Shown piece after piece: positions 4,114 through 61,963 of a DNA stretch of 64,000 nucleotides. The first letter of the stretch is position 1. The number at the start of each line of letters is the position of its first letter. The notes below the pieces were generated by a model. That model worked only from the letters and a program-made list of their open reading frames with translations. It was not told the DNA's origin and did no database searches. Origin of the DNA: a phage; sequence record PZ171033.1; one strand, given 5' to 3'. The position numbers and the translations under genes are program-made.

Positions 4114-6162
4114 ATGAAAATCGAACTGATTTCTATCATCGCACTGGCAGTTGACAGTCGTAACCTTACACTGTGGAAGCCTGATGGCTCCACAATTGTA
4201 TATCCACAGAGCGACCCACGGGTTGCTCGTATTGTATCTGAAGCACAAACCAAAGGTCTGGGAACTACCAAAGATCAAATAGAAGTAAACATTGCACCAG
4301 AAGTAAACCTGCGTACTGAATACCTGGAAGCAGAGAAGAACACTAACGGATTCGTCCGTTTCTTCAAGGTAGCTAAAGCTAAACTTAAAGAGTTCTTCCA
4401 GGATGGCACGGGTACTCAACCTAACCGTATTATTTCTGATATTAAGCTAGGCAACCCTACTAAAACATTAGTATCTAAAGCTATGGATACCTTCCTGGCT
4501 GTACAGGCTAATGAACCAGAAGTAACTGTAACAGATGGTTGTTATGACAGACGTGACAACCTGATGTGGGTTACTGGCTGGGACAAAGACCATAACCATC
4601 CTGCACTGGTTCGTTTTATCAATGACGTATTGCGTTGTGGTTATGACCATACCAACCGTACTCTTGCACAAGAATGGCCTATTGCAATTCGTGCGGTATC
4701 CGATGATGAAATGGGTGAGTTTGTTAAACAAGCTCAGCACATCAAAGGGGTACACGTTGTATTTACCAGTCGTGATGTAACGCCATTTCCTTACATAGAA
4801 GTGGCTAAAACTACGAACCAGGATAAGCTGGCTGCTGCTTCTGAGAAGTTAGCTGCATTGGGTGCTATTAGTACTGATGATGCTAACTTCCACACTGAAG
4901 TGAAAGAAGATGAAGTGGTTGTTGCTGTTACCAACAATGGGGTTATCCCCGGAGTTGAGAACCTACATCGTCACTTACGTCAGTCTGCCCAGCTGAAAGA
5001 CTACAAGGGCTTTACTAAGTTCCTTGAGCGTCTGGCTCCGGTTATTAAAGACCGTCTGCACTCAGTGGAAGACCTGATGAAGTTCATGGAGACTGCTGAA
5101 CTACCTATTGCTGATGATGGTTCAATCCTATTCCTTAAACGCTTGCAGTATAAAGGCAATGAGGATGGTAAACGTGTATTCGTTGACTGTCACTCAGGTA
5201 ACATCAAACAGTGGGTAGGTTGTAAAGTGCAGGTACGTGAAGACCTGGTAGACCCTGACCGTCGTCAGGATTGTTCTAACGGTCTGCACGTAGCTTCCAT
5301 GAGCTATCTACGTGGCTTCGGTGGTAACGTAACTATCCTTGGTAAAGTAGCACCGGAAGATGTATTTGCTGTTCCTGAGTACAGCACTAATAAGATGCGT
5401 GTATCTGCGTATCACATTATTGCTGAACTACCGGAAGAGGAACGTAATAACGTTAACAATGGTATCTACCTGTCTAAGACAGAAGTAGGTAAGAAATTGC
5501 TTAATGATGCCATCGTTGGGAACCATAGCTCACCTACCACACTTATTATGGTTGGTGGTCATCGTGGTACTAACCTCAAATACACCAATCTCACATCTGG
5601 TTCTGTAGAACAATTCCGTACAGTTGCTAGCAAAGAAGCACTGAACATGGAAGAGTCACTGAATGAAGCTGTAGCTGCTGAACCAGTGAAGGCTACTGAC
5701 CTTAAACCTGTTATTAAGAAGGCTCCTACTGTGAAAGAACAAATCCAGGAACTAGTAAAAGAGTTCCTTAATGCAACAACACCAGAAGATAAATTAGCTG
5801 CTGCTGACCTTCTGGTAGAACTGCGTGGTAAAGCTCGTAAGCCTTGGGCTTTATTCGATGTGGGTAATGATGTAGTAGCTAAGATTGCTGATGTACGTGC
5901 AACCTATACAGCTAAGCCTATTGGTAAACCTAAAGCTGTTAAGCAGGATAAGACAGTTAAACCTACTAAATCTAAGCCAGCTATTAATAGCACTAATGCC
6001 AACATCATCAGAGGTTACCTAGCAGATAGTGGTATGTCCGATTATCAGAAAGCCCACTCCATTCATGACCTGAAACGTGCAGCTAAAAAGTCATATGCTG
6101 CTATGGGTCTTACTGAAGAAGAGTGTAAAGCTATTGATAAGCTGAAGCACCACCTTAAGTAA
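4114..6162 (+). CDS. rIIB-like protein (positional inference)
   Basis: 682 aa ORF immediately downstream of rIIA-like gene; no motif recognised. Confidence 0.45.
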   Translation: MKIELISIIALAVDSRNLTLWKPDGSTIVYPQSDPRVARIVSEAQTKGLGTTKDQIEVNIAPEVNLRTEYLEAEKNTNGFVRFFKVAKAKLKEFFQDGTGTQPNRIISDIKLGNPTKTLVSKAMDTFLAVQANEPEVTVTDGCYDRRDNLMWVTGWDKDHNHPALVRFINDVLRCGYDHTNRTLAQEWPIAIRAVSDDEMGEFVKQAQHIKGVHVVFTSRDVTPFPYIEVAKTTNQDKLAAASEKLAALGAISTDDANFHTEVKEDEVVVAVTNNGVIPGVENLHRHLRQSAQLKDYKGFTKFLERLAPVIKDRLHSVEDLMKFMETAELPIADDGSILFLKRLQYKGNEDGKRVFVDCHSGNIKQWVGCKVQVREDLVDPDRRQDCSNGLHVASMSYLRGFGGNVTILGKVAPEDVFAVPEYSTNKMRVSAYHIIAELPEEERNNVNNGIYLSKTEVGKKLLNDAIVGNHSSPTTLIMVGGHRGTNLKYTNLTSGSVEQFRTVASKEALNMEESLNEAVAAEPVKATDLKPVIKKAPTVKEQIQELVKEFLNATTPEDKLAAADLLVELRGKARKPWALFDVGNDVVAKIADVRATYTAKPIGKPKAVKQDKTVKPTKSKPAINSTNANIIRGYLADSGMSDYQKAHSIHDLKRAAKKSYAAMGLTEEECKAIDKLKHHLK

Positions 6163-19242: not shown

Positions 19243-19243
19243 G

Positions 19244-19313
19244 GTCGGGGTAGCACGTAGGCATGTGCGGATGGTCGCTACTTCCCTCGCTGGTTCGAAT
19301 CCAGCCCCCGACT
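19244..19313 (+). tRNA. tRNA-like element (non-canonical anticodon arm)
   Basis: 7/7 acceptor stem GTCGGGG/CCCCGAC, D arm GCAC/GTGC, T arm GCTGG-TTCGAAT-CCAGC; anticodon arm does not pair canonically by hand. Confidence 0.35.
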
Positions 19314-19864
19314 TACTGACATCCTATCAATGAGTACATTAGGCTAACGTGCGGAGGTTTACACTGTAGCCGGTGTAGGTGGAGAAGACGGCAGGGTAGC
19401 TACCTGTGCTTAGTGTACTCTTTGATAGTTTTCGTAAGCGATTATGCGGTTTTTTAGAAACGAACCAATAACATAAATGCAAACGATGATGTTGTTCTGA
19501 TGGCGGCGTAATAGCCTGTAAGTCAGCAAGGTCTTCCGACTCCTTGTAAGCAAATTCGGCGCAGTGGCCCGCTGTGATTAATAATGGGCACACAACAGGT
19601 AAGAGCATTTAGGCTACTGAGAAATCATCCGAGGCAATCAGACCTATCTTCTGTTAAGTGCTCTTTCCGTTGTGGTGAATGCGCAGGCTGATGCGCAGTG
19701 GGACGTGGCTGACTCACGAGGATGGCTCAAGCGAATAAGCAAGCTCGACGCCGCCGAATAAGCGCCTTATGCCGGAGATCAGCACCGGCCACCACAACAA
19801 GTCCAGACGATATCTGAGTGACTATAAAAACAGATGGAGCCAGGTGGAATCCCTGGCAACTAAT

Positions 19865-20693: not shown

Positions 20694-20769
20694 TACCCGG
20701 TAGGCTTAGTGGTAAAGCCCCACTAGTAAACCAACTAGGACGCAGGTTCGAATCCTGTCCGGGTAGCCA
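20694..20769 (+). tRNA. tRNA-like gene with encoded CCA (6-nt anticodon loop)
   Basis: Acceptor TACCCGG/CCGGGTA, D arm GGCT/AGCC, T arm GCAGG-TTCGAAT-CCTGT, discriminator G + CCA; anticodon stem CTAGT/ACTAG with 6-nt loop. Confidence 0.4.
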
Positions 20770-52393: not shown

Positions 52394-54004
52394 TCACACA
52401 ATGTATGAACGTAGTGGATTAACACTATCTTCTTCTTCCTCATCCCACATTGGGTCACCCTTGTTATCCACCAAAGTCATACCTGCTTGTGGTTTCCAAG
52501 GATTGAGATAACCCAGCATGGAGATAGTATCAATACAGTCATCCTTACCTTTAATCCCATTAATGGTAGCTAGTTTAATCTGGCCCATGAACAGACCCAT
52601 AATAGTCGTATCTCTCAACTCTTCTGGGAAGTACATCTTACCAGCTTTGAACCATGGAACTACCAGGTTAAAGCGTGACAGTTTAGAGGTTACAGGACGG
52701 ATGCCTGGCTTACCACCCTCAGAGGATGCAAAGTTAAAGAAGACATTACGGTTAATCATTTCTTTCTGAAGGAGTGAGATAAATCCATTTTGTTGTCCTG
52801 TAATTTCGACACCAACGTTTTGTGGTTGGTATTCCTGAACCAGACGGAAGAGGTCGTCAAAGTTCTTATCCATAAGCTGACGATTAGCCACACCATCAAC
52901 CCAGAACCAATCTCCATTAGAACTATAAGCCCAAACTGATATGACACTGTAGTCACTGGTCTGTTTCTCCGAAGTAGCAAAGTCAGTTGTAATATAATAG
53001 TTGTAGCAGGACTTCATCCTTAACAGTTGCTGTCTGCTGTACCATTTAATCTCACTATCCTGAACAAGGCGTTCATCTTCAGAACTAATACGAAGCATAA
53101 GTTCCTGGTAGAAGCCAGCCAGCTTACCAGTCTTAACTGCCATGTCATATTGGGCTTTGATGTAGTCGTAGGAGAAACGGTCATCCCATGCACCCTGAAA
53201 TTCTTCTCTACTACAGGGGAACTTCTCACATACAGGCCATACGTTTACATCCCATGCACCAGACTCTACTGCTTCAATGATAATGTCTTCCTTATTAAAG
53301 GGAGTACCATTGAAGATTACTTTACGACGAGTAGGGTCAAGAGCATGGTTCACACCTTTATAAACAGTATCTTTAATAGCTTCCATGCTAGTCTTAGAGT
53401 TAGCATCACCATCACTAATCAAGTCATCCAGTACACAGAGTGTTGGACGTTTACCATATATCTTCGTACCACGAAGACCTGTCTTAGCACCAAACAACTT
53501 AACACCAAGTCGATGTCCTTCTACATTACGGAACTCCAGTAGGTTATCCGTAAAGGTAGCTTCAGGTATCCATTGCTGAAGGAACTCACTATTCTTGTAA
53601 CGAAATTCAATGTTCTTACGTGCAGACTTAGCACCGTTATCCATTGAGTCAGATACGTAAATCATTCCTTCTACTTTACCCAGGCTAGGTAAGTGACCAA
53701 ACACTGCCAGAAACAAAGTAAAGTATTCCATGAATACAGCAGTCTTACCTGCACCACGGAAGCACAGGTTAACTACATACTGGTTCGGACTAATCATCTT
53801 ATCCAGCATCTTCAGGTGAACTGGAGGTGTTTTGTTGGATTCACCTTCTTTGCCATTAACCAACTTAATAAAGTTGGCAAAGGTAAGAGCAAACTGACTA
53901 GGAACATAGTTAGATGAATTAAGGTGGGAGTAATCCACCTGGTCCAGCCATTCATCTAGTTCCTGTTTAATTAACTCAGACATCTGTAATGTCCTCATCT
54001 GCAC
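52394..54004 (-). CDS. terL: terminase large subunit
   Basis: Walker A CFRGAGKTAV, Walker B LCVLDDLISD, nuclease-domain YYITTDFATS. Confidence 0.85.
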   Translation of the reverse strand: MQMRTLQMSELIKQELDEWLDQVDYSHLNSSNYVPSQFALTFANFIKLVNGKEGESNKTPPVHLKMLDKMISPNQYVVNLCFRGAGKTAVFMEYFTLFLAVFGHLPSLGKVEGMIYVSDSMDNGAKSARKNIEFRYKNSEFLQQWIPEATFTDNLLEFRNVEGHRLGVKLFGAKTGLRGTKIYGKRPTLCVLDDLISDGDANSKTSMEAIKDTVYKGVNHALDPTRRKVIFNGTPFNKEDIIIEAVESGAWDVNVWPVCEKFPCSREEFQGAWDDRFSYDYIKAQYDMAVKTGKLAGFYQELMLRISSEDERLVQDSEIKWYSRQQLLRMKSCYNYYITTDFATSEKQTSDYSVISVWAYSSNGDWFWVDGVANRQLMDKNFDDLFRLVQEYQPQNVGVEITGQQNGFISLLQKEMINRNVFFNFASSEGGKPGIRPVTSKLSRFNLVVPWFKAGKMYFPEELRDTTIMGLFMGQIKLATINGIKGKDDCIDTISMLGYLNPWKPQAGMTLVDNKGDPMWDEEEEDSVNPLRSYIV

Positions 54005-54665
54005 GAACTAGTTTAGAACCAGCAACCTCTTTGGTAGGTACACCACTATTGATTGCATTGATTTGCTGCTCAGCTAATGCAGCAAGTGTTGCCTTGAGGT
54101 CAGTTAATCCAGAGTTCTCTCTCAAGTCCAGATTGATATTTGTTACCTGGTCTTTCGGTTTAGCTAAGTGAGTAAGGATAGAGTTAGCTGCATCACATCT
54201 TACTTTCTCACTCGCTGCTGTAGTCATTAGTTCAACCTGAACGTTGATAGCCTTCTGATAATTATCTTGGTTCACAATCCACACTGGAACCAAACTTTGT
54301 TCCATGATGAGGTTAACTAGCTTACCCCTGTGGTAAGCAGATACATAAGCACTAATATCTTTCTCACTGGTTCCTCGTGCTACGAGTTCTGCTTGTCGGT
54401 TGGGGAATGTCTTGAAGTAGGCTTCCTTATTTGAGTAGCCCATGTGCTTGTAAGTCACATACTGAACTGCATTCATGTAGTCCTGTGTCTTAAACTTACC
54501 TTCCTTCATTACACCAGAGTAGGAGATAAAGTTTTCACGGAAGGACTCAGCAACCAGTTGGTCTTGGGTTATGTTGTTAATCGTGTCTACCAACTCCTGG
54601 GTCACACTGTTTTTGAAGTTAGCAGGTAGTGCATTAATAATCTGCTGCTTAGTTAGTTCACTCAT
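53976..54665 (-). CDS. putative terminase small subunit
   Basis: 229 aa immediately upstream of and overlapping terL. Confidence 0.35.
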   Translation of the reverse strand: MSELTKQQIINALPANFKNSVTQELVDTINNITQDQLVAESFRENFISYSGVMKEGKFKTQDYMNAVQYVTYKHMGYSNKEAYFKTFPNRQAELVARGTSEKDISAYVSAYHRGKLVNLIMEQSLVPVWIVNQDNYQKAINVQVELMTTAASEKVRCDAANSILTHLAKPKDQVTNINLDLRENSGLTDLKATLAALAEQQINAINSGVPTKEVAGSKLVRADEDITDV

Positions 54666-54836
54666 ACTTATCTCGCTACAAAGTTATGTCTATTAAAGAA
54701 GATTCTTTTCTTGGGGTGAGTTACCCCTTGAAGAAACGATACCATACAGTTACACTTTAGTCATGATATAGAAAAAGTTCATGATACTAAATAGTATGTA
54801 ATGTTCCGATGACCCTATTCCCAAAAGGAGTAACAT

Positions 54837-55127
54837 TTGAGAATCTATATGAGAGTCCATGACTCTAAAGATGAATACGCAGAGGTAGACCACACCGAAG
54901 CTGGTATTCTTTCAGATGATATTATCATCACACATGATGAAGATACCTATCATGAATTAGCTGGGATGATGCTTTTAGAGAATCGTCCGGGCATTAACAT
55001 CCTGGAACCAAGAGAAACTTACTCTTTAGAAAAACGTTTTTCAGCTCTCGTGTTCTTCACAAAATTACCTCATAGTGTCTCCGTCAGGCGAAGCAAAGAC
55101 AGTGTTCGGATGACGGTGACGATGTGA
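54837..55127 (+). CDS. small protein, member of paralogous family
   Basis: Probable TTG start with AAAGGAG 7 nt upstream; motif IIITHDEDTYHELAGMMLL. Confidence 0.4.
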   Translation: MRIYMRVHDSKDEYAEVDHTEAGILSDDIIITHDEDTYHELAGMMLLENRPGINILEPRETYSLEKRFSALVFFTKLPHSVSVRRSKDSVRMTVTM

Positions 55128-55275
55128 TTAGTCATGCCGCCTAGTAGACAGTGGCGGTACTCGTAAAGAGTTAATAACTTCTACAGTCAGGGTTGCCCGG
55201 CTCCTTTCCTACCTAGTAGGCTAACGATACACATGTATCTAGGGTGATGAACTGGCCCGTGATAGAAAACGGTAA

Positions 55276-55312
55276 GGGGTAGAGTCGAGAGGCTCTACCC
55301 CATTTCTTTTTT
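55276..55312 (+). terminator. intrinsic terminator
   Basis: GGGGTAGAG/CTCTACCCC stem then TTTCTTTTTT. Confidence 0.6.
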
Positions 55313-55327
55313 AGGAGGTATGCAAAT

Positions 55328-55723
55328 ATGAGCATCTACGCTTTTGATATTGATATTACCGGTGTACTTCGTAAGCAGGAACCCTACTACCTAGGGGAAC
55401 CAGAGATGGTAAGTAAGTTCTTATCTAAACATGCAGTCTTCCTACCAGACTGTGAAGAATCCCATGAGATAGTTGGTTCATTCTTCTTAAGTAACCTGCA
55501 AATCAATACACGTATACTTACTGAACCAGTTGTGTATGACCTTACTGAGTATGCAGACTTCGAAACATTCTTCCCAGGAGTTAGGTTCTATAAAGTACCT
55601 GGCTGGGAAATGATTGTTGAACATAACCTCTTTAATAAAACACTTTCCATTTACTTCAGACCTATCCCTAAAGGAAGGAAAATCCATCATGAAATTCATA
55701 CTGACCGCCCCCAGTTTTATTAA
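55328..55723 (+). CDS. small protein, paralogous family
   Basis: AGGAGGT RBS; motif HEIVGSFFL. Confidence 0.5.
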   Translation: MSIYAFDIDITGVLRKQEPYYLGEPEMVSKFLSKHAVFLPDCEESHEIVGSFFLSNLQINTRILTEPVVYDLTEYADFETFFPGVRFYKVPGWEMIVEHNLFNKTLSIYFRPIPKGRKIHHEIHTDRPQFY

Positions 55724-56003
55724 AGGGGAATCCTTATACACAACAGACTTTACTTTAGAAGAAGTCATAGACAGCAACCCTCAGCATGTAATTCTGGTTC
55801 CTACCCTAGAGGACTACCATGAAGTAAGGGGTCAACTCTTCTTAGCAGGTAATGATCGTAAGGTTGTGTGTATCATTCCTCCTTCTGTCTATACCAATAG
55901 TGGTGCGTATGATGCTCTACCTTTTATGTTGGTATCCGAGGACTACCAATGGGATAGTCGCTACGAGAATGAGGAATACCGCTACTACTATGTAAGGAAG
56001 TAA
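55689..56003 (+). CDS. small protein, paralogous family
   Basis: AAGGAAGG RBS before ATG 55689; motif HVILVPTLEDYHEVRGQLFL. Confidence 0.45.
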   Translation: MKFILTAPSFIKGESLYTTDFTLEEVIDSNPQHVILVPTLEDYHEVRGQLFLAGNDRKVVCIIPPSVYTNSGAYDALPFMLVSEDYQWDSRYENEEYRYYYVRK

Positions 56004-56006
56004 GAT

Positions 56007-56324
56007 ATGCACTTCTATGGTTTGAGCTATCGTAGTACCAACCCCCTTAATCTGGGGGTAGGTAAATCCCATTGGATGAGAATAAGCACGCCTATGACCA
56101 TGTACTACGAACAATGTGAAAAAGCGGATGAGTTCATCGGAACCTGTCTATTATTAGGCGTACCTATTACCTTTATTAAAATAGATACTTCCATTGAAGT
56201 TCCAGAGAATGTAGTTGTATACATCTACTCTTCCTGTGAACCTCTGATAGAAACTACCCTTACGGGTAGACTTATTACCCTCTACCCTTCTACCTCATAT
56301 TTATCTAGCGACGAGAGTCTCTAA
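56007..56324 (+). CDS. small hypothetical protein
   Basis: 105 aa. Confidence 0.5.
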   Translation: MHFYGLSYRSTNPLNLGVGKSHWMRISTPMTMYYEQCEKADEFIGTCLLLGVPITFIKIDTSIEVPENVVVYIYSSCEPLIETTLTGRLITLYPSTSYLSSDESL

Positions 56325-56608
56325 TGGTTATCAGTAAAATTTATCCAGAGCCTAATGAGGAAAATTACATCCTCCATAAAGAAATAGCTGACCCGAATGC
56401 TGATGTACTTATCCTGGTTCCAGATGAACAGTCTCTACATGTGATACAAGGATTACTCTTCCTATACAATAAGAATTCGGTAGTACATCTACTTGAACCA
56501 GAAACACCTATGTCCTGGCAGGGTAGCTTTAGTCCTTGGCATCTTAATACAGACAAGTACATCCTTTCATTCGAGGGTAACACTCCCATCTATAAGGAAA
56601 GGAACTAA
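56324..56608 (+). CDS. small protein, paralogous family
   Basis: Motif VLILVPDEQSLHVIQGLLFL. Confidence 0.5.
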   Translation: MVISKIYPEPNEENYILHKEIADPNADVLILVPDEQSLHVIQGLLFLYNKNSVVHLLEPETPMSWQGSFSPWHLNTDKYILSFEGNTPIYKERN

Positions 56609-56611
56609 AAC

Positions 56612-56950
56612 ATGAACGTTAAGCTCTTGGGAATGAGTGGTACTGACTTACTGCATTATTCCTCTGTACCAGAAAAAGCAATCATCCATATTATGACCTA
56701 TGGGAGTTCTACACTAATAATGGAACCAGGAGAGTTAGCAGACTTTGCACAGGGGCATAAACTTATTACTAACAGTAATGCAGAGATAGTTATCCTGCAA
56801 AACGGTGAGTCAGTCTCCATACCATTGGGAGATTATGCTCATGTGTTTATCAAAGATGCTACCGTAAGGAATAGTAGTGGTAACCCTAACCATCCTGACT
56901 ATTACTCTGGCATAGCACGTATCATCACCAGAACCTCCCCTCCTATTTAA
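56612..56950 (+). CDS. small hypothetical protein
   Basis: 112 aa. Confidence 0.5.
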   Translation: MNVKLLGMSGTDLLHYSSVPEKAIIHIMTYGSSTLIMEPGELADFAQGHKLITNSNAEIVILQNGESVSIPLGDYAHVFIKDATVRNSSGNPNHPDYYSGIARIITRTSPPI

Positions 56951-57108
56951 CTGCTTATAAGTGAGATAGCTATGATATTTTTGCATGTCAAAATGTTGAT
57001 AGCTATGTATGGCTACAGTGGTGTGGCTGGGGCTACACCCTTACACTCAACCATCCCCCCCGGTATGTTGACCGTGTAGCCACTACCCTACCCCACCTTA
57101 CACGTTAC

Positions 57109-57123
57109 ACATGCTCCGCATGT
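57109..57123 (+). promoter_or_regulatory. 3-nt-loop hairpin, candidate vRNAP early promoter
   Basis: ACATGC-TCC-GCATGT, then NNNGG; intergenic upstream of gene at 57166. Confidence 0.35.
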
Positions 57124-57165
57124 TATGGACATGTCGTCCTATCATCAACTATTGGAGCTATCATC

Positions 57166-57489
57166 ATGACCACTACCGCTACTGTACGTATGACTGCAGG
57201 AACTTTACTTGGTACTGTTAACTCAGCTGCTACTACTGTTGCAGATACATTTGGTACAGCAACTAAAGCAGTAGGTATGCTTAATTCATATGTAAGTACT
57301 ATGGCAGAGAAACAAGCCATCCGTACTAAATTAGAAATGCATACCTTTGTTAATAAACTGGCAGAGGAAACAGCTATGACTGAGACTCTGCGTAAGAAAA
57401 GTATCGAGGAATTCTGCAAGGATTCAGAGAACGCTCGTATCTATAACGCAGAATATTCCAAAGTAATTGACATCCTGACTAAAGACTAA
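57166..57489 (+). CDS. early protein
   Basis: 107 aa. Confidence 0.5.
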   Translation: MTTTATVRMTAGTLLGTVNSAATTVADTFGTATKAVGMLNSYVSTMAEKQAIRTKLEMHTFVNKLAEETAMTETLRKKSIEEFCKDSENARIYNAEYSKVIDILTKD

Positions 57490-57496
57490 GTCACAT

Positions 57497-57524
57497 AGGA
57501 GACTCTTCGGAGTCTCCTGTTTTG
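57497..57524 (+). terminator. intrinsic terminator
   Basis: GGAGACTC-TTCG-GAGTCTCC then TGTTTTG. Confidence 0.6.
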
Positions 57525-57597
57525 AACATTAGATAGATAGTCAAAAGTAGATAACTATCTACTTTAAGTTAACTAACTCGCACTATCTTTAAAAGAA

Positions 57598-57612
57598 AGA
57601 CGCTCCGCGTCT
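57598..57612 (+). promoter_or_regulatory. 3-nt-loop hairpin, candidate vRNAP early promoter
   Basis: AGACGC-TCC-GCGTCT then AAAGG. Confidence 0.35.
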
Positions 57613-57722
57613 AAAGGATAAGAATGAATCCACTTCTTATCGAAATCTTAAGTCTTTTCTTGGGTTTAGTCACCGACAGACAAACCCATAAATCAAAAAA
57701 TCATTTATCTGGAGAGTACAAA

Positions 57723-61948: not shown

Positions 61949-61963
61949 AGCTGCTCCGCAGCT
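61949..61963 (+). promoter_or_regulatory. 3-nt-loop hairpin, candidate vRNAP early promoter (or short terminator)
   Basis: AGCTGC-TCC-GCAGCT then TTTGG; upstream of RNAPII gene. Confidence 0.35.

What the first reader, a model, noticed from the sequence alone, without database searches (positions are those of the whole stretch)
54837..56950. Tandem array of paralogous small proteins next to the terminase end
At least four consecutive small ORFs share a motif (hydrophobic run - P/T - EDYHE-like - G - LFL): IIITHDEDTYHELAGMMLL, HEIVGSFFL, HVILVPTLEDYHEVRGQLFL, VLILVPDEQSLHVIQGLLFL. Gene families amplified at a genome end are typical of host-takeover or anti-defence functions. None of the TCC-loop hairpins lies upstream, so this block may belong to the genome right end rather than the early operon.
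Basis: seen in the sequence. Interest (0 to 1): 0.5.

Follow-up and report, generated by a model that had tools for sequence, protein, structure and literature searches.

The report
Paralogous small-gene array at phage end
The last 2 kb before the right terminal repeat of this N4-like coliphage holds six small genes that are diverged copies of the uncharacterised N4 genes gp70 and gp71. They evolve fast, vary in number between relatives and are not virion parts, so they look like accessory genes, but their function is unknown.

Summary
The window is a Gamaleyavirus (N4-like, Schitoviridae). ORFs A (54837-55127), B (55328-55723), C (55689-56003) and E (56324-56608) are significantly related. 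Smith-Waterman z-scores reach 9.9, with 0 of 300 shuffles matching. hhalign gives 81-98% probability for A-E, C-E, B-C and A-C. D (56007-56324) and F (56612-56950) are related to each other (89.5%, E=2e-6). They link more weakly to the others, in the same motif register, so one superfamily of six is probable.

A is the orthologue of N4 gp70 and B of N4 gp71. N4 has two copies. Relatives have two to six or more, always between the terminase genes and the right terminal repeat (here 57023-57424).

The genes are under purifying selection (dN/dS 0.14-0.21). Their dN is 9-21 times that of the terminase genes, and cassettes are gained, lost and swapped. They are mildly acidic and have no Pfam, PDB, NCBIfam or PADLOC match. 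They are absent from a relative's virion proteome.

The best reading is non-structural accessory proteins made after full genome entry and acting by protein binding. The anti-defence role is unproven.

Two noncoding elements flanking gene A are more conserved than the genes and may be the more novel feature.

The parts
52394..54004 (-). Terminase large subunit (context; left neighbour of the block)
   Evidence: ORF. Annotated as terminase large subunit in Mimir124. 98.9% median aa identity to relatives, dN/dS 0.02.
53976..54665 (-). N4 gp69-like protein, putative small terminase subunit (phrog_2109)
   Evidence: phrog_2109 at E 1e-105, with a weak small-terminase hit. KP8 annotates its homologue as small terminase. 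97-100% aa identity in Gamaleyavirus loci.
54666..54836 (.). Divergent intergenic region upstream of ORF A, almost invariant within the genus. It keeps two boxes (TTACACTTTAG at 54750-54760; CCTATTCCC..AAAGGAG at 54813-54829) of a ~75-nt element conserved across Schitoviridae.
   Evidence: 96.1% median nt identity against 78-88% for ORFs A-F. The N4 version is 79-92% identical in Pseudomonas, Achromobacter and Klebsiella N4-like phages, with one copy per genome. No vRNAP hairpin here and no good sigma-70 match.
54837..55127 (+). ORF A, 96 aa, TTG start; orthologue of N4 gp70 (phrog_7213); family member
   Evidence: hhalign to N4 gp70 99.4%. phrog_7213 at 3e-43. The N-terminus MRIY aligns with MRLFY of N4, KP8 and inbricus. 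An AAGGAG RBS lies 7 nt upstream. dN/dS 0.19. tblastn finds it in 90 phage records, all N4-like.
55128..55327 (+). Conserved structured noncoding region between A and B, ending in an intrinsic terminator (stem 55276-55301, T-run to 55311) 2 nt before B's RBS
   Evidence: 90-99% identical in 56 Gamaleyavirus records and 76% in Moo19 and Jgk1. 92.7% median identity against 78-85% for the flanking ORFs. Terminator scan. RNA fold z -2.5. 35 consensus pairs, 10 with compensatory changes. The first hairpin and the terminator are kept in 9 sequences from 7 genera or unclassified lineages, including N4, KP8, JWAlpha and inbricus. No Rfam match.
55328..55723 (+). ORF B, 131 aa; orthologue of N4 gp71 (phrog_9160); family member
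   Evidence: hhalign to N4 gp71 98.2%. phrog_9160 at 1e-60. B-C 86-90%. dN/dS 0.21.
55689..56003 (+). ORF C, 104 aa (ATG 55689, overlaps the end of B by 35 nt); phrog_11661; family member
   Evidence: Profile match over residues 1-104 of 104 at 4e-63. C-E 97.6%, E 2.6e-12. dN/dS 0.15.
56007..56324 (+). ORF D, 105 aa; phrog_12099; related to F, probable distant family member
   Evidence: D-F 89.5%, E 2e-6; B-D 1.4e-3 in the motif register. The motif LYEPSEEADEFIGTCLMLG is seen in 47 homologues. The A/B/C/E-only profile gives E>1 for D, and the iterated profile gives only E 0.011-0.21. The AF2 model failed, pLDDT 45. dN/dS 0.19.
56324..56608 (+). ORF E, 94 aa (start overlaps D's stop by 1 nt); phrog_16338; family member; present in only some relatives
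   Evidence: A-E and C-E links. AF2 model with pLDDT 78.5, order b-b-b-a-b-b-b-b. BFVD structural hits are only to N4-like phage proteins. In most loci it is replaced by a 40-52% identical variant or is absent.
56612..56950 (+). ORF F, 112 aa; phrog_12606; related to D, probable distant family member; last gene before the terminal repeat
   Evidence: A-F 53.5%, E 1.3e-4; E-F 3e-3; D-F 2e-6. F-type variants enter the iterated profile at about 3e-4. The KP8 F-like protein gp069 hits the A/B/C/E-only profile at 1e-3.
56936..56962 (+). Conserved junction DNA (CCCTCCTATTTAACTGCTTATAAGTGA). In relatives it supplies the shared C-terminal tail ..PS(S)YLTAYK* to whichever gene is last in the array.
   Evidence: Sequence. 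Different terminal genes (E-variant, D, HExxH ORF, F-variants) end in PSYLTAYK in loci L002, L005-L007, L009, L011 and in proteins P0187 and P0198. Inferred to be a recombination boundary for cassette exchange.
57023..57424 (.). Direct terminal repeat (402 bp); contains the first vRNAP hairpin promoter (57109-57123) and the 5' part of the gp1-like ORF G (57166-57489)
   Evidence: The IME11 terminal reads (PMC3896407) map to 57023 (+) and 57424 (-). Mimir124 annotates its DTR from 72 nt after its F homologue. Hairpins.

Best explanation
The block is a lineage-specific expansion of the N4 gp70/gp71 small-protein family at the right end of a Gamaleyavirus genome.

Shown:
- Four of the six ORFs (A, B, C, E) are homologous to one another.
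- D and F are homologous to each other and probably to the rest.
- A is the orthologue of N4 gp70 and B of N4 gp71.
- All are 94-131 aa, mildly acidic and soluble.
- They share a core of hydrophobic strand, Pro, amphipathic helix (acidic start, His, invariant Gly), then a second strand.
- The flanks are more variable than the core in C, D, E and F.
- The genes are under purifying selection but evolve about ten times faster than the neighbouring terminase genes.
- Gene content differs between close relatives. G7C has A-D only, one metagenomic relative has A only, and N4 has A and B.
- The arrangement suggests two units: A alone, ending in a long structured 3' region with an intrinsic terminator, then B-F packed with overlapping or 3-nt-spaced junctions.

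Inferred:
- The block lacks vRNAP promoters and lies at the end that enters the cell last. It would therefore be expressed only after genome entry is complete, by RNAPII or host RNAP.
- B-F would depend on terminator read-through or on an unrecognised internal promoter.
- The proteins are non-structural accessory factors that act stoichiometrically by binding other proteins. The conserved strand-helix-strand core would serve as scaffold and the divergent N- and C-terminal parts as specificity surfaces.
- The most likely targets are host proteins, such as defence or other strain-variable factors. That would explain the turnover and the copy-number variation.
For: - Paralogy.
- Orthology to N4 gp70 and gp71.
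- Same family and same position in Moo19, Jgk1, KP8, JWAlpha and inbricus.
- Real genes: dN/dS 0.14-0.21, RBSs present, and 60 to more than 220 homologue clusters found in each search.
- Fast evolution: dN 0.066-0.15 against 0.006-0.007 for TerL and TerS; nt identity 78-88% against 94-96% for the flanks.
- Gene gain, loss and replacement between phages whose TerS is 97-100% identical.
- Acidic, with no TM or signal features: pI 4.6-5.9, GRAVY -0.40 to +0.11.
- Motif more conserved than the flanks in C, D, E and F.
- Not in the Moo19 virion proteome: PMC11654681 Table 1.
- Right-end location and terminal repeat.
- Left end enters first; late transcripts run leftward, early and middle rightward: PMC4496689.
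- Terminator after A and tight packing of B-F.
Against: - No expression, interaction or phenotype data exist for any member, so the protein-binding and host-target steps are inference only.
- A-type and B-type genes occur in every N4-like phage examined across two subfamilies. They sit between strongly conserved noncoding elements next to the terminase genes and the terminal repeat. This fits a conserved phage-internal role (replication, packaging or regulation) at least as well for those two.
- dN/dS well below 1 gives no direct sign of positive selection.
- Acting late is atypical for anti-defence proteins aimed at restriction-type systems.
- Membership of D and F rests on E-values of 1e-4 to 1e-2. 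D's structure model failed.
- The promoter was not identified.
Confidence: 0.5

Rival explanations
1. The family serves a phage-internal function tied to the genome end, for example helping start replication, processing concatemers at the terminal repeat, or regulating packaging or late transcription. A and B would be the core pair and the extra copies subfunctionalised duplicates.
For: - A-type and B-type genes keep the same position and order (TerL, TerS, then A, a noncoding gap with terminator, then B) in Enquatrovirinae and Rothmandenesvirinae.
- A single-copy ~75-nt element upstream of A is 79-92% identical between N4, Pseudomonas, Achromobacter and Klebsiella phages, whose A proteins share only about 23-36% identity with the window's A.
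- Within the genus both intergenic regions are more conserved than the ORFs.
- The block abuts the terminal repeat.
Against: - B-F are missing from one relative and E and F from G7C, while N4 manages with two copies.
- Proteins with a fixed internal partner would not be expected to diverge 9-21 times faster (dN) than the terminase.
- Acidic proteins with pI 4.6-5.9 are poor candidates for DNA-end binding.
- The conservation of the noncoding elements may reflect their own function, unrelated to the proteins.
Confidence: 0.25
2. The genes are accessory but act on other phages or on the infected cell's physiology (superinfection exclusion, lysis timing, metabolism) and not on host defence systems.
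For: The evidence is the same as for accessory status: variable content, fast evolution, non-structural. Expression after genome entry suits functions needed late in infection.
Against: There are no membrane-spanning or secretion features, which most exclusion or lysis-control proteins have. No similarity to any such family. Nothing distinguishes this reading from the main one except the target.
Confidence: 0.15
3. The shared motif is a generic strand-Pro-helix-Gly-strand pattern that arose independently, so the ORFs are unrelated ORFans.
For: The conserved stretch is short, about 30-35 residues. D and F link to the others only at E 1e-4 to 1e-2. The E model matches only generic alpha/beta subdomains in PDB.
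Against: - A-E, C-E and B-C are significant as single sequences (z 6.4-9.9, 0 of 300 shuffles).
- As profiles they reach E 2.6e-12.
- C-E aligns over 67 of about 100 residues, well beyond the motif.
- The control ORF and 796 background ORFs give no comparable hits.
- The BFVD structure search with E recovers C-type and A-type proteins at E 1.8e-5 and 1.2e-4, TM 0.61-0.75.
Confidence: 0.05

Closest known systems
Bacteriophage N4 gp70 and gp71 (hypothetical proteins at the N4 right end)
   Same: A is the orthologue of gp70 (hhalign 99.4%) and B of gp71 (98.2%). Position is the same: after gp68 and gp69 on the opposite strand, separated by a ~210-nt structured gap with a terminator, just before the terminal repeat. 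gp70 and gp71 both match the E-type profile (84.9% and 59.3%), so they are themselves paralogues.
   Different: N4 has only these two copies plus a 42-aa gp72. The window has six. No function is recorded for gp70 or gp71 in the papers searched.
PHROG families 7213, 9160, 11661, 12099, 16338 and 12606 (all 'unknown function')
   Same: Each window ORF is a full-length member of one of them, at E 4e-36 to 4e-63.
   Different: PHROGs keeps them as six separate families. The analysis here joins 7213, 9160, 11661 and 16338 firmly, and 12099 with 12606, with a probable link between the two groups.
Terminal multigene families and hyperplastic accessory regions of other DNA viruses (poxvirus and ASFV terminal gene families, T4-like hyperplastic regions). 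This is an analogy from general knowledge, not a tested relation.
   Same: Tandem diverged paralogues lie near a genome end. Copy number varies between close relatives, and divergence is faster than in the core genes.
   Different: There is no sequence or fold relation. Those families have documented host-range or immune-evasion roles, whereas nothing is documented here. This array sits at the end of the genome that enters last and is flanked by highly conserved noncoding elements.
Characterised phage anti-defence proteins (Ocr, Ard, Acr-type small acidic inhibitors). Functional analogy only.
   Same: Small, acidic, non-structural, fast-evolving and variable in presence.
   Different: No hit in Pfam, PDB sequences, NCBIfam or by fold search. 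No early promoter. The location is not compatible with immediate expression.

Membership tests
N4 gp70/gp71-like small-protein family (as defined here) | Significant sequence or profile similarity to other members | tested here: met
   A, B, C and E: z 4.3-9.9; hhalign 59-98%; N4 gp70 and gp71 99.4% and 98.2%. Only array ORFs are hit among 796 background ORFs.
N4 gp70/gp71-like small-protein family (as defined here) | The same similarity for ORFs D and F | tested here: inconclusive
   D-F 89.5%, E 2e-6. Links to the other group are A-F 1.3e-4, B-D 1.4e-3 and E-F 3e-3, against control E-values of 0.05-0.75. With the A/B/C/E-only profile, F scores 0.064 and D more than 1. D's AF2 model was unusable, pLDDT 45.
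N4 gp70/gp71-like small-protein family (as defined here) | Core motif: hydrophobic strand, P, acidic helix start, (H), G, hydrophobic run, about 30-50 residues from the N-terminus of a 90-135 aa protein | tested here: met
   Present in all six ORFs. The Gly is the only invariant motif column in the six-way alignment. The E model places it as strand 29-32, Pro33, helix 35-47.
N4 gp70/gp71-like small-protein family (as defined here) | Location between the gp69-like/terminase genes and the right terminal repeat, on the strand opposite to the late genes | tested here: met
   Window; N4; Mimir124; KP8, JWAlpha and inbricus.
Known anti-defence / defence-related protein families | Homology to a described family | tested here: not met
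Known anti-defence / defence-related protein families | Expression at the onset of infection (early promoter, first-entering DNA) | tested here: not met
   No vRNAP hairpin promoter upstream. The block lies at the last-entering end. Actual timing was not measured.
Known anti-defence / defence-related protein families | Demonstrated inhibition of a host defence system | not testable with these tools
   Needs plating of deletion mutants on defence-carrying strains or co-expression assays.
Virion structural proteins | Detected in purified particles | tested here: not met
   The Moo19 virion mass-spectrometry table lists 12 proteins. None is an array member (gp1-gp7, gp86) (PMC11654681). No particle data were examined for this phage itself.
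Rfam RNA families (for the A-B intergenic element) | Match to a curated covariance model | tested here: not met
   The only hit in 54600-57700 at E<=1 is a chance mir-279 match upstream of A on the - strand, outside the element. No tRNA or tmRNA there.

The most novel reading that the evidence does not exclude
The gp70/gp71-like genes and the two noncoding elements around gene A form one conserved right-end module of Schitoviridae. The elements are a ~75-nt single-copy sequence upstream of A, and a ~200-260-nt structured, terminator-ended RNA downstream of A that carries CUCCUU / CCUCCUUA (anti-Shine-Dalgarno-like) tracts. Under this reading the RNA is a new phage regulatory RNA, for example one gating read-through or translation of the paralogue operon. 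The upstream element would be a recognition site for a conserved phage machine (packaging, replication or a dedicated promoter). The proteins would then take part in genome-end biology and would not be mere accessory cargo.
Probability: 0.15. Interest if true: 0.7.

Novelty: new member of a known kind. Interest (0 to 1): 0.4.

Why it matters
Six PHROG families of unknown function collapse into one, or at most two linked, families that mark the right genome end of N4-like phages. N4's gp70 and gp71 are shown to be paralogues of each other. This gives a defined, variable, dispensable-looking cassette to test for host-range or defence-evasion effects in a phage group used for therapy (Gamaleyavirus, KP8-like, Achromobacter and Pseudomonas N4-like phages). 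The noncoding elements beside gene A are more conserved than any nearby protein, across hosts from E. coli to Pseudomonas. They are candidates for cis-acting signals (promoter, pac or ori site, regulatory RNA) that have not been described for N4-like phages in the literature I could search.

Tried and rejected
- Structure of D, to test its membership: the AF2 model had pLDDT 45 and was unusable.
- AFDB50 fold search for E: the library was not available.
- Pfam, NCBIfam, PADLOC and PDB-sequence searches: nothing.
- The exhaustive 1.84-billion-protein profile search found only 21 representatives, all of the A, B, C, E or F types. The family is narrow, and no cellular homologue gives a functional lead.
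- The HExxH ORF found in the arrays of some relatives has no Pfam hit and only an unknown-function PHROG, so it gives no guilt-by-association clue.
- Promoter search: the sigma-70 consensus scan found fewer sites than shuffles and none upstream of A. A k-mer comparison of the upstream region with the rest of the window gave only chance-level matches. The N4 middle-promoter consensus could not be retrieved from the papers held.
- Literature: no function for N4 gp70 or gp71, and no N4 right-end origin or transcript data found.
- The LUZ7 sRNA locus (orf69/70) could not be equated with the element seen here.
- DNA-level repeats between the paralogues: none.
- Rfam and tRNA searches for the intergenic element: none.
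- Single-strand DNA folding of the upstream element: no convincing structure.
Full report
**Identity of the window and position of the block.**
The region 54700-57100 matches 59 phage records at 83-91% nucleotide identity. Almost all are Escherichia or Shigella phages of the genus Gamaleyavirus (Schitoviridae, N4-like), and where records start at the left genome end the match lies at their extreme right end.
- To the left, on the - strand, are the large terminase (52394-54004) and an N4 gp69-like putative small terminase (53976-54665).
- The terminal reads published for the close relative IME11 (PMC3896407) map to window 57023 (+) and 57424 (-). This gives a 402-bp direct terminal repeat, in line with the 401 bp reported for IME11 and with the Mimir124 annotation.
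- The block 54837-56950 is therefore the last unique DNA before the right copy of the terminal repeat.
- Hairpins with a TCC loop and GC-TCC-GC core, the N4 virion-RNA-polymerase promoter type, occur only at 57109, 57598 and 61949. None lies upstream of the block.

**The ORFs.**
Six + strand ORFs fill the block:

| ORF | Coordinates | Length | Note |
|---|---|---|---|
| A | 54837-55127 | 96 aa | TTG start |
| B | 55328-55723 | 131 aa | |
| C | 55689-56003 | 104 aa | |
| D | 56007-56324 | 105 aa | |
| E | 56324-56608 | 94 aa | |
| F | 56612-56950 | 112 aa | |

- A's TTG start is supported by an AAGGAG 7 nt upstream. Its N-terminus MRIY also aligns with MRLFY or MRLFF of the homologues in N4, KP8 and inbricus.
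- B to F are packed with a 35-nt overlap, a 3-nt gap, a 1-nt overlap and a 3-nt gap. This suggests one translationally coupled unit.
- A is separated from B by 200 nt that end in a strong intrinsic terminator.
- All six are real genes. Each has many homologues. Against 2-10 orthologues per gene, dN/dS is 0.14-0.21.

**Is the shared motif more than chance?**
Yes for A, B, C and E.
- Smith-Waterman scores against 300 shuffles gave z 9.9 (A-E), 8.4 (C-E), 6.4 (B-C) and 4.3 (A-C), none reached by any shuffle. Pairs with the unrelated ORF G gave z below 0.6.
- PHROG cross-hits and hhalign on family alignments agree: C-E 97.6% (E 2.6e-12, 67 aligned columns), A-E 91-95%, B-C 86-90%, A-C 59-81%, B-E 44-56%.
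- An unrelated ORF used as control scored E 0.05-0.75.
- A profile built only from A/B/C/E-type sequences, run against 796 six-frame ORFs of the window and the loci then fetched, hit only ORFs in such arrays below E 0.2.

D and F are a second pair.
- With enriched alignments they match each other at 89.5% (E 2e-6).
- They connect to the first group through A-F (53.5%, 1.3e-4), B-D (1.4e-3) and E-F (3e-3), always in the motif register.
- F-type variants enter an iterated profile at about 3e-4.
- An F-like KP8 protein hits the A/B/C/E-only profile at 1e-3, and a D-like Moo19 protein at 0.026.
- I rate a single superfamily of six at roughly 75%.
- The paralogues share no DNA-level repeats, so the duplications are ancient.

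**Relatives.**
- N4 gp70 is the orthologue of A (99.4%) and gp71 of B (98.2%). Both also match the E-type profile, so the two N4 genes are paralogues.
- tblastn with A finds 90 records, all N4-like, from Escherichia, Shigella, Klebsiella, Achromobacter and Pseudomonas hosts.
- Family members were detected by profile in the following phages:

| Phage | Members detected |
|---|---|
| Moo19 | gp86 (A-type, by tblastn), gp1, gp2, gp4, gp6; gp5 weakly |
| Jgk1 | three |
| KP8 | gp072, gp071, gp070, gp069, gp063 |
| JWAlpha | gp87, gp90 |
| inbricus | two |

- The layout is the same throughout: terminase genes, then an A-type gene, a 200-260-nt gap with a terminator, a B-type gene, further small ORFs, and the genome end.
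- The exhaustive profile search of 1.84 billion representatives found only 21 proteins below E 1e-3, all of these types. The family is narrow and phage-specific.

**Evolutionary behaviour.**
- Among ten Gamaleyavirus loci whose gp69-like protein is 97-100% identical to the window's, A-F are 55-96% identical where they are present.
- Median nucleotide identity by segment:

| Segment | Median nt identity (%) |
|---|---|
| TerL | 94.6 |
| TerS | 94.1 |
| A | 85.2 |
| B | 78.5 |
| C | 82.6 |
| D | 88.0 |
| E | 84.6 |
| F | 87.3 |
| Terminal repeat | 95.3 |

- dN is 0.066-0.15 against 0.006-0.007 for the terminase genes.
- Content varies:
  - E is present in 2 of 10 loci and otherwise replaced by a 40-52% identical variant or missing.
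  - F is present in 3 of 10, with a 35-47% identical variant in others.
  - Some loci carry an extra HExxH ORF.
  - G7C (L009) has only A-D.
  - L011 has only A plus the HExxH ORF.
- Whatever gene is last often ends in ..PS(S)YLTAYK. That tail is encoded by a conserved DNA junction, which in the window (56936-56962) is read in a frame other than F's. This indicates cassette exchange at a fixed boundary.

**Protein properties.**
- pI is 4.6-5.9, net charge -3 to -7, GRAVY -0.40 to +0.11, with no membrane or secretion features.
- The AlphaFold model of E (pLDDT 78.5, pTM 0.68) has the order b-b-b-a-b-b-b-b. The motif forms strand 29-32, Pro33 and helix 35-47, followed by strand 53-56.
- In BFVD it matches only N4-like phage proteins. 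These include C-type and A-type proteins of other Gamaleyaviruses at E 1.8e-5 and 1.2e-4. Several proteins per genome in KP8, Achromobacter and Pseudomonas N4-like phages match weakly.
- In C, D, E and F the motif region is less variable than the flanks.
- There is no Pfam, NCBIfam, PADLOC or PDB-sequence match.
- The Moo19 virion proteome contains none of its array members (PMC11654681).

**How it most likely works.**
- Shown: a diverged tandem family, non-structural in a relative, partly dispensable, fast-evolving, at the right end, without early promoters.
- From the N4 literature: the left end enters first, entry is completed only with middle transcription, and late transcripts run leftward while early and middle ones run rightward (PMC4496689).
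- Inferred: the block is transcribed rightward after full entry. A would form its own unit, and B-F would lie behind a terminator that must be read through or bypassed. The proteins would act by binding other proteins, most plausibly strain-variable host factors. I put this at about 0.5.
- The main rival, at about 0.25, is a phage-internal role at the genome end. Its support is the universal A/B pair and the conserved noncoding DNA around A.

**Noncoding elements (seen in passing, partly followed).**
- The A-B gap (55128-55327):
  - It is 90-99% identical in 56 records and 76% in two other lineages, the genus Moovirus (Moo19) and the unclassified phage Jgk1.
  - It folds into several hairpins plus the terminator.
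  - Ten of its 35 consensus pairs show compensatory change.
  - Its first hairpin (CCGCC..GGCGG) and its terminator are kept, with compensatory changes and + strand G-U pairs, in nine sequences including N4, KP8, JWAlpha and inbricus.
  - It contains CUCCUU, and in relatives CCUCCUUA, resembling the 3' end of 16S rRNA.
  - No Rfam family matches.
- The region upstream of A:
  - It is nearly invariant within the genus.
  - In N4 the corresponding ~75 nt are 79-92% identical in Pseudomonas, Achromobacter and Klebsiella phages, once per genome and unannotated.
  - The window keeps only its two flanking boxes.
- What these elements do is unknown.

**Verdict.**
The anti-defence interpretation remains a reasonable but untested guess, and 'host takeover' at the start of infection is unlikely. 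The finding is a new, uncharacterised member of a familiar kind: a variable paralogue array in a phage accessory region. Interest is moderate. The flanking conserved noncoding elements deserve their own follow-up.

Noticed in passing
window 55128-55327 (+): The 200-nt gap between ORFs A and B is better conserved than the ORFs (92.7% against 78-85% nt identity). It forms several hairpins with compensatory changes, ends in an intrinsic terminator, carries a CUCCUU tract (CCUCCUUA in relatives), and has counterparts in N4, Moo19, Jgk1, KP8, JWAlpha and inbricus. No Rfam match. It is a candidate regulatory RNA or structured 3' UTR.
   Followed up: partly
window 54666-54836; N4 record 68971-69048 (L014 about 4472-4549): The region upstream of the gp70-like gene holds a single-copy ~75-nt noncoding element that is 79-92% identical between N4 and N4-like phages of Pseudomonas, Achromobacter and Klebsiella. 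The window keeps only the boxes TTACACTTTAG and CCTATTCCC..AAAGGAG, but has its own genus-wide near-invariant version. It may be a promoter/operator, pac site or origin.
   Followed up: partly
window 56936-56962: The conserved junction DNA CCCTCCTATTTAACTGCTTATAAGTGA encodes PSYLTAYK* in a frame not used by F. In relatives, different last genes of the array end with this tail, which implies cassette replacement at a fixed recombination boundary just before the terminal repeat.
   Followed up: partly
window 57023-57424: The direct terminal repeat (402 bp) was located from the published IME11 terminal reads. It contains the first vRNAP hairpin promoter (57109-57123) and the first 259 nt of the gp1-like ORF G (57166-57489), so the right genome end carries a truncated copy of that gene.
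   Followed up: yes
window 57109-57123, 57598-57612, 61949-61963: There are three hairpins with a 6-bp stem, TCC loop and common GC-TCC-GC core, matching the N4 virion RNA polymerase promoter architecture (three early promoters, as in N4).
   Followed up: partly
loci L003, L004, L007, L008, L011 (for example L003 array position 1941-2255); KP8 L017 5616-5948: Some relatives carry an extra 104-110 aa ORF with an HExxH motif (HEVNHF / HELNHF; phrog_1365, unknown function) inside the array. It is absent from the window.
   Followed up: partly
window 56951-57022: The 72 nt between F and the terminal repeat contain two copies of GATAGCTATG (about 56966 and 56998), each with the palindrome ATAGCTAT. 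The second copy lies about 15 nt before the left-end cut site.
   Followed up: no
window 20694-20769: ARAGORN reports a tRNA-like gene with an undetermined two-base anticodon next to a tRNA-Ala(cgc) at 19243-19314. A paper on related phages also lists one undetermined tRNA.
   Followed up: no
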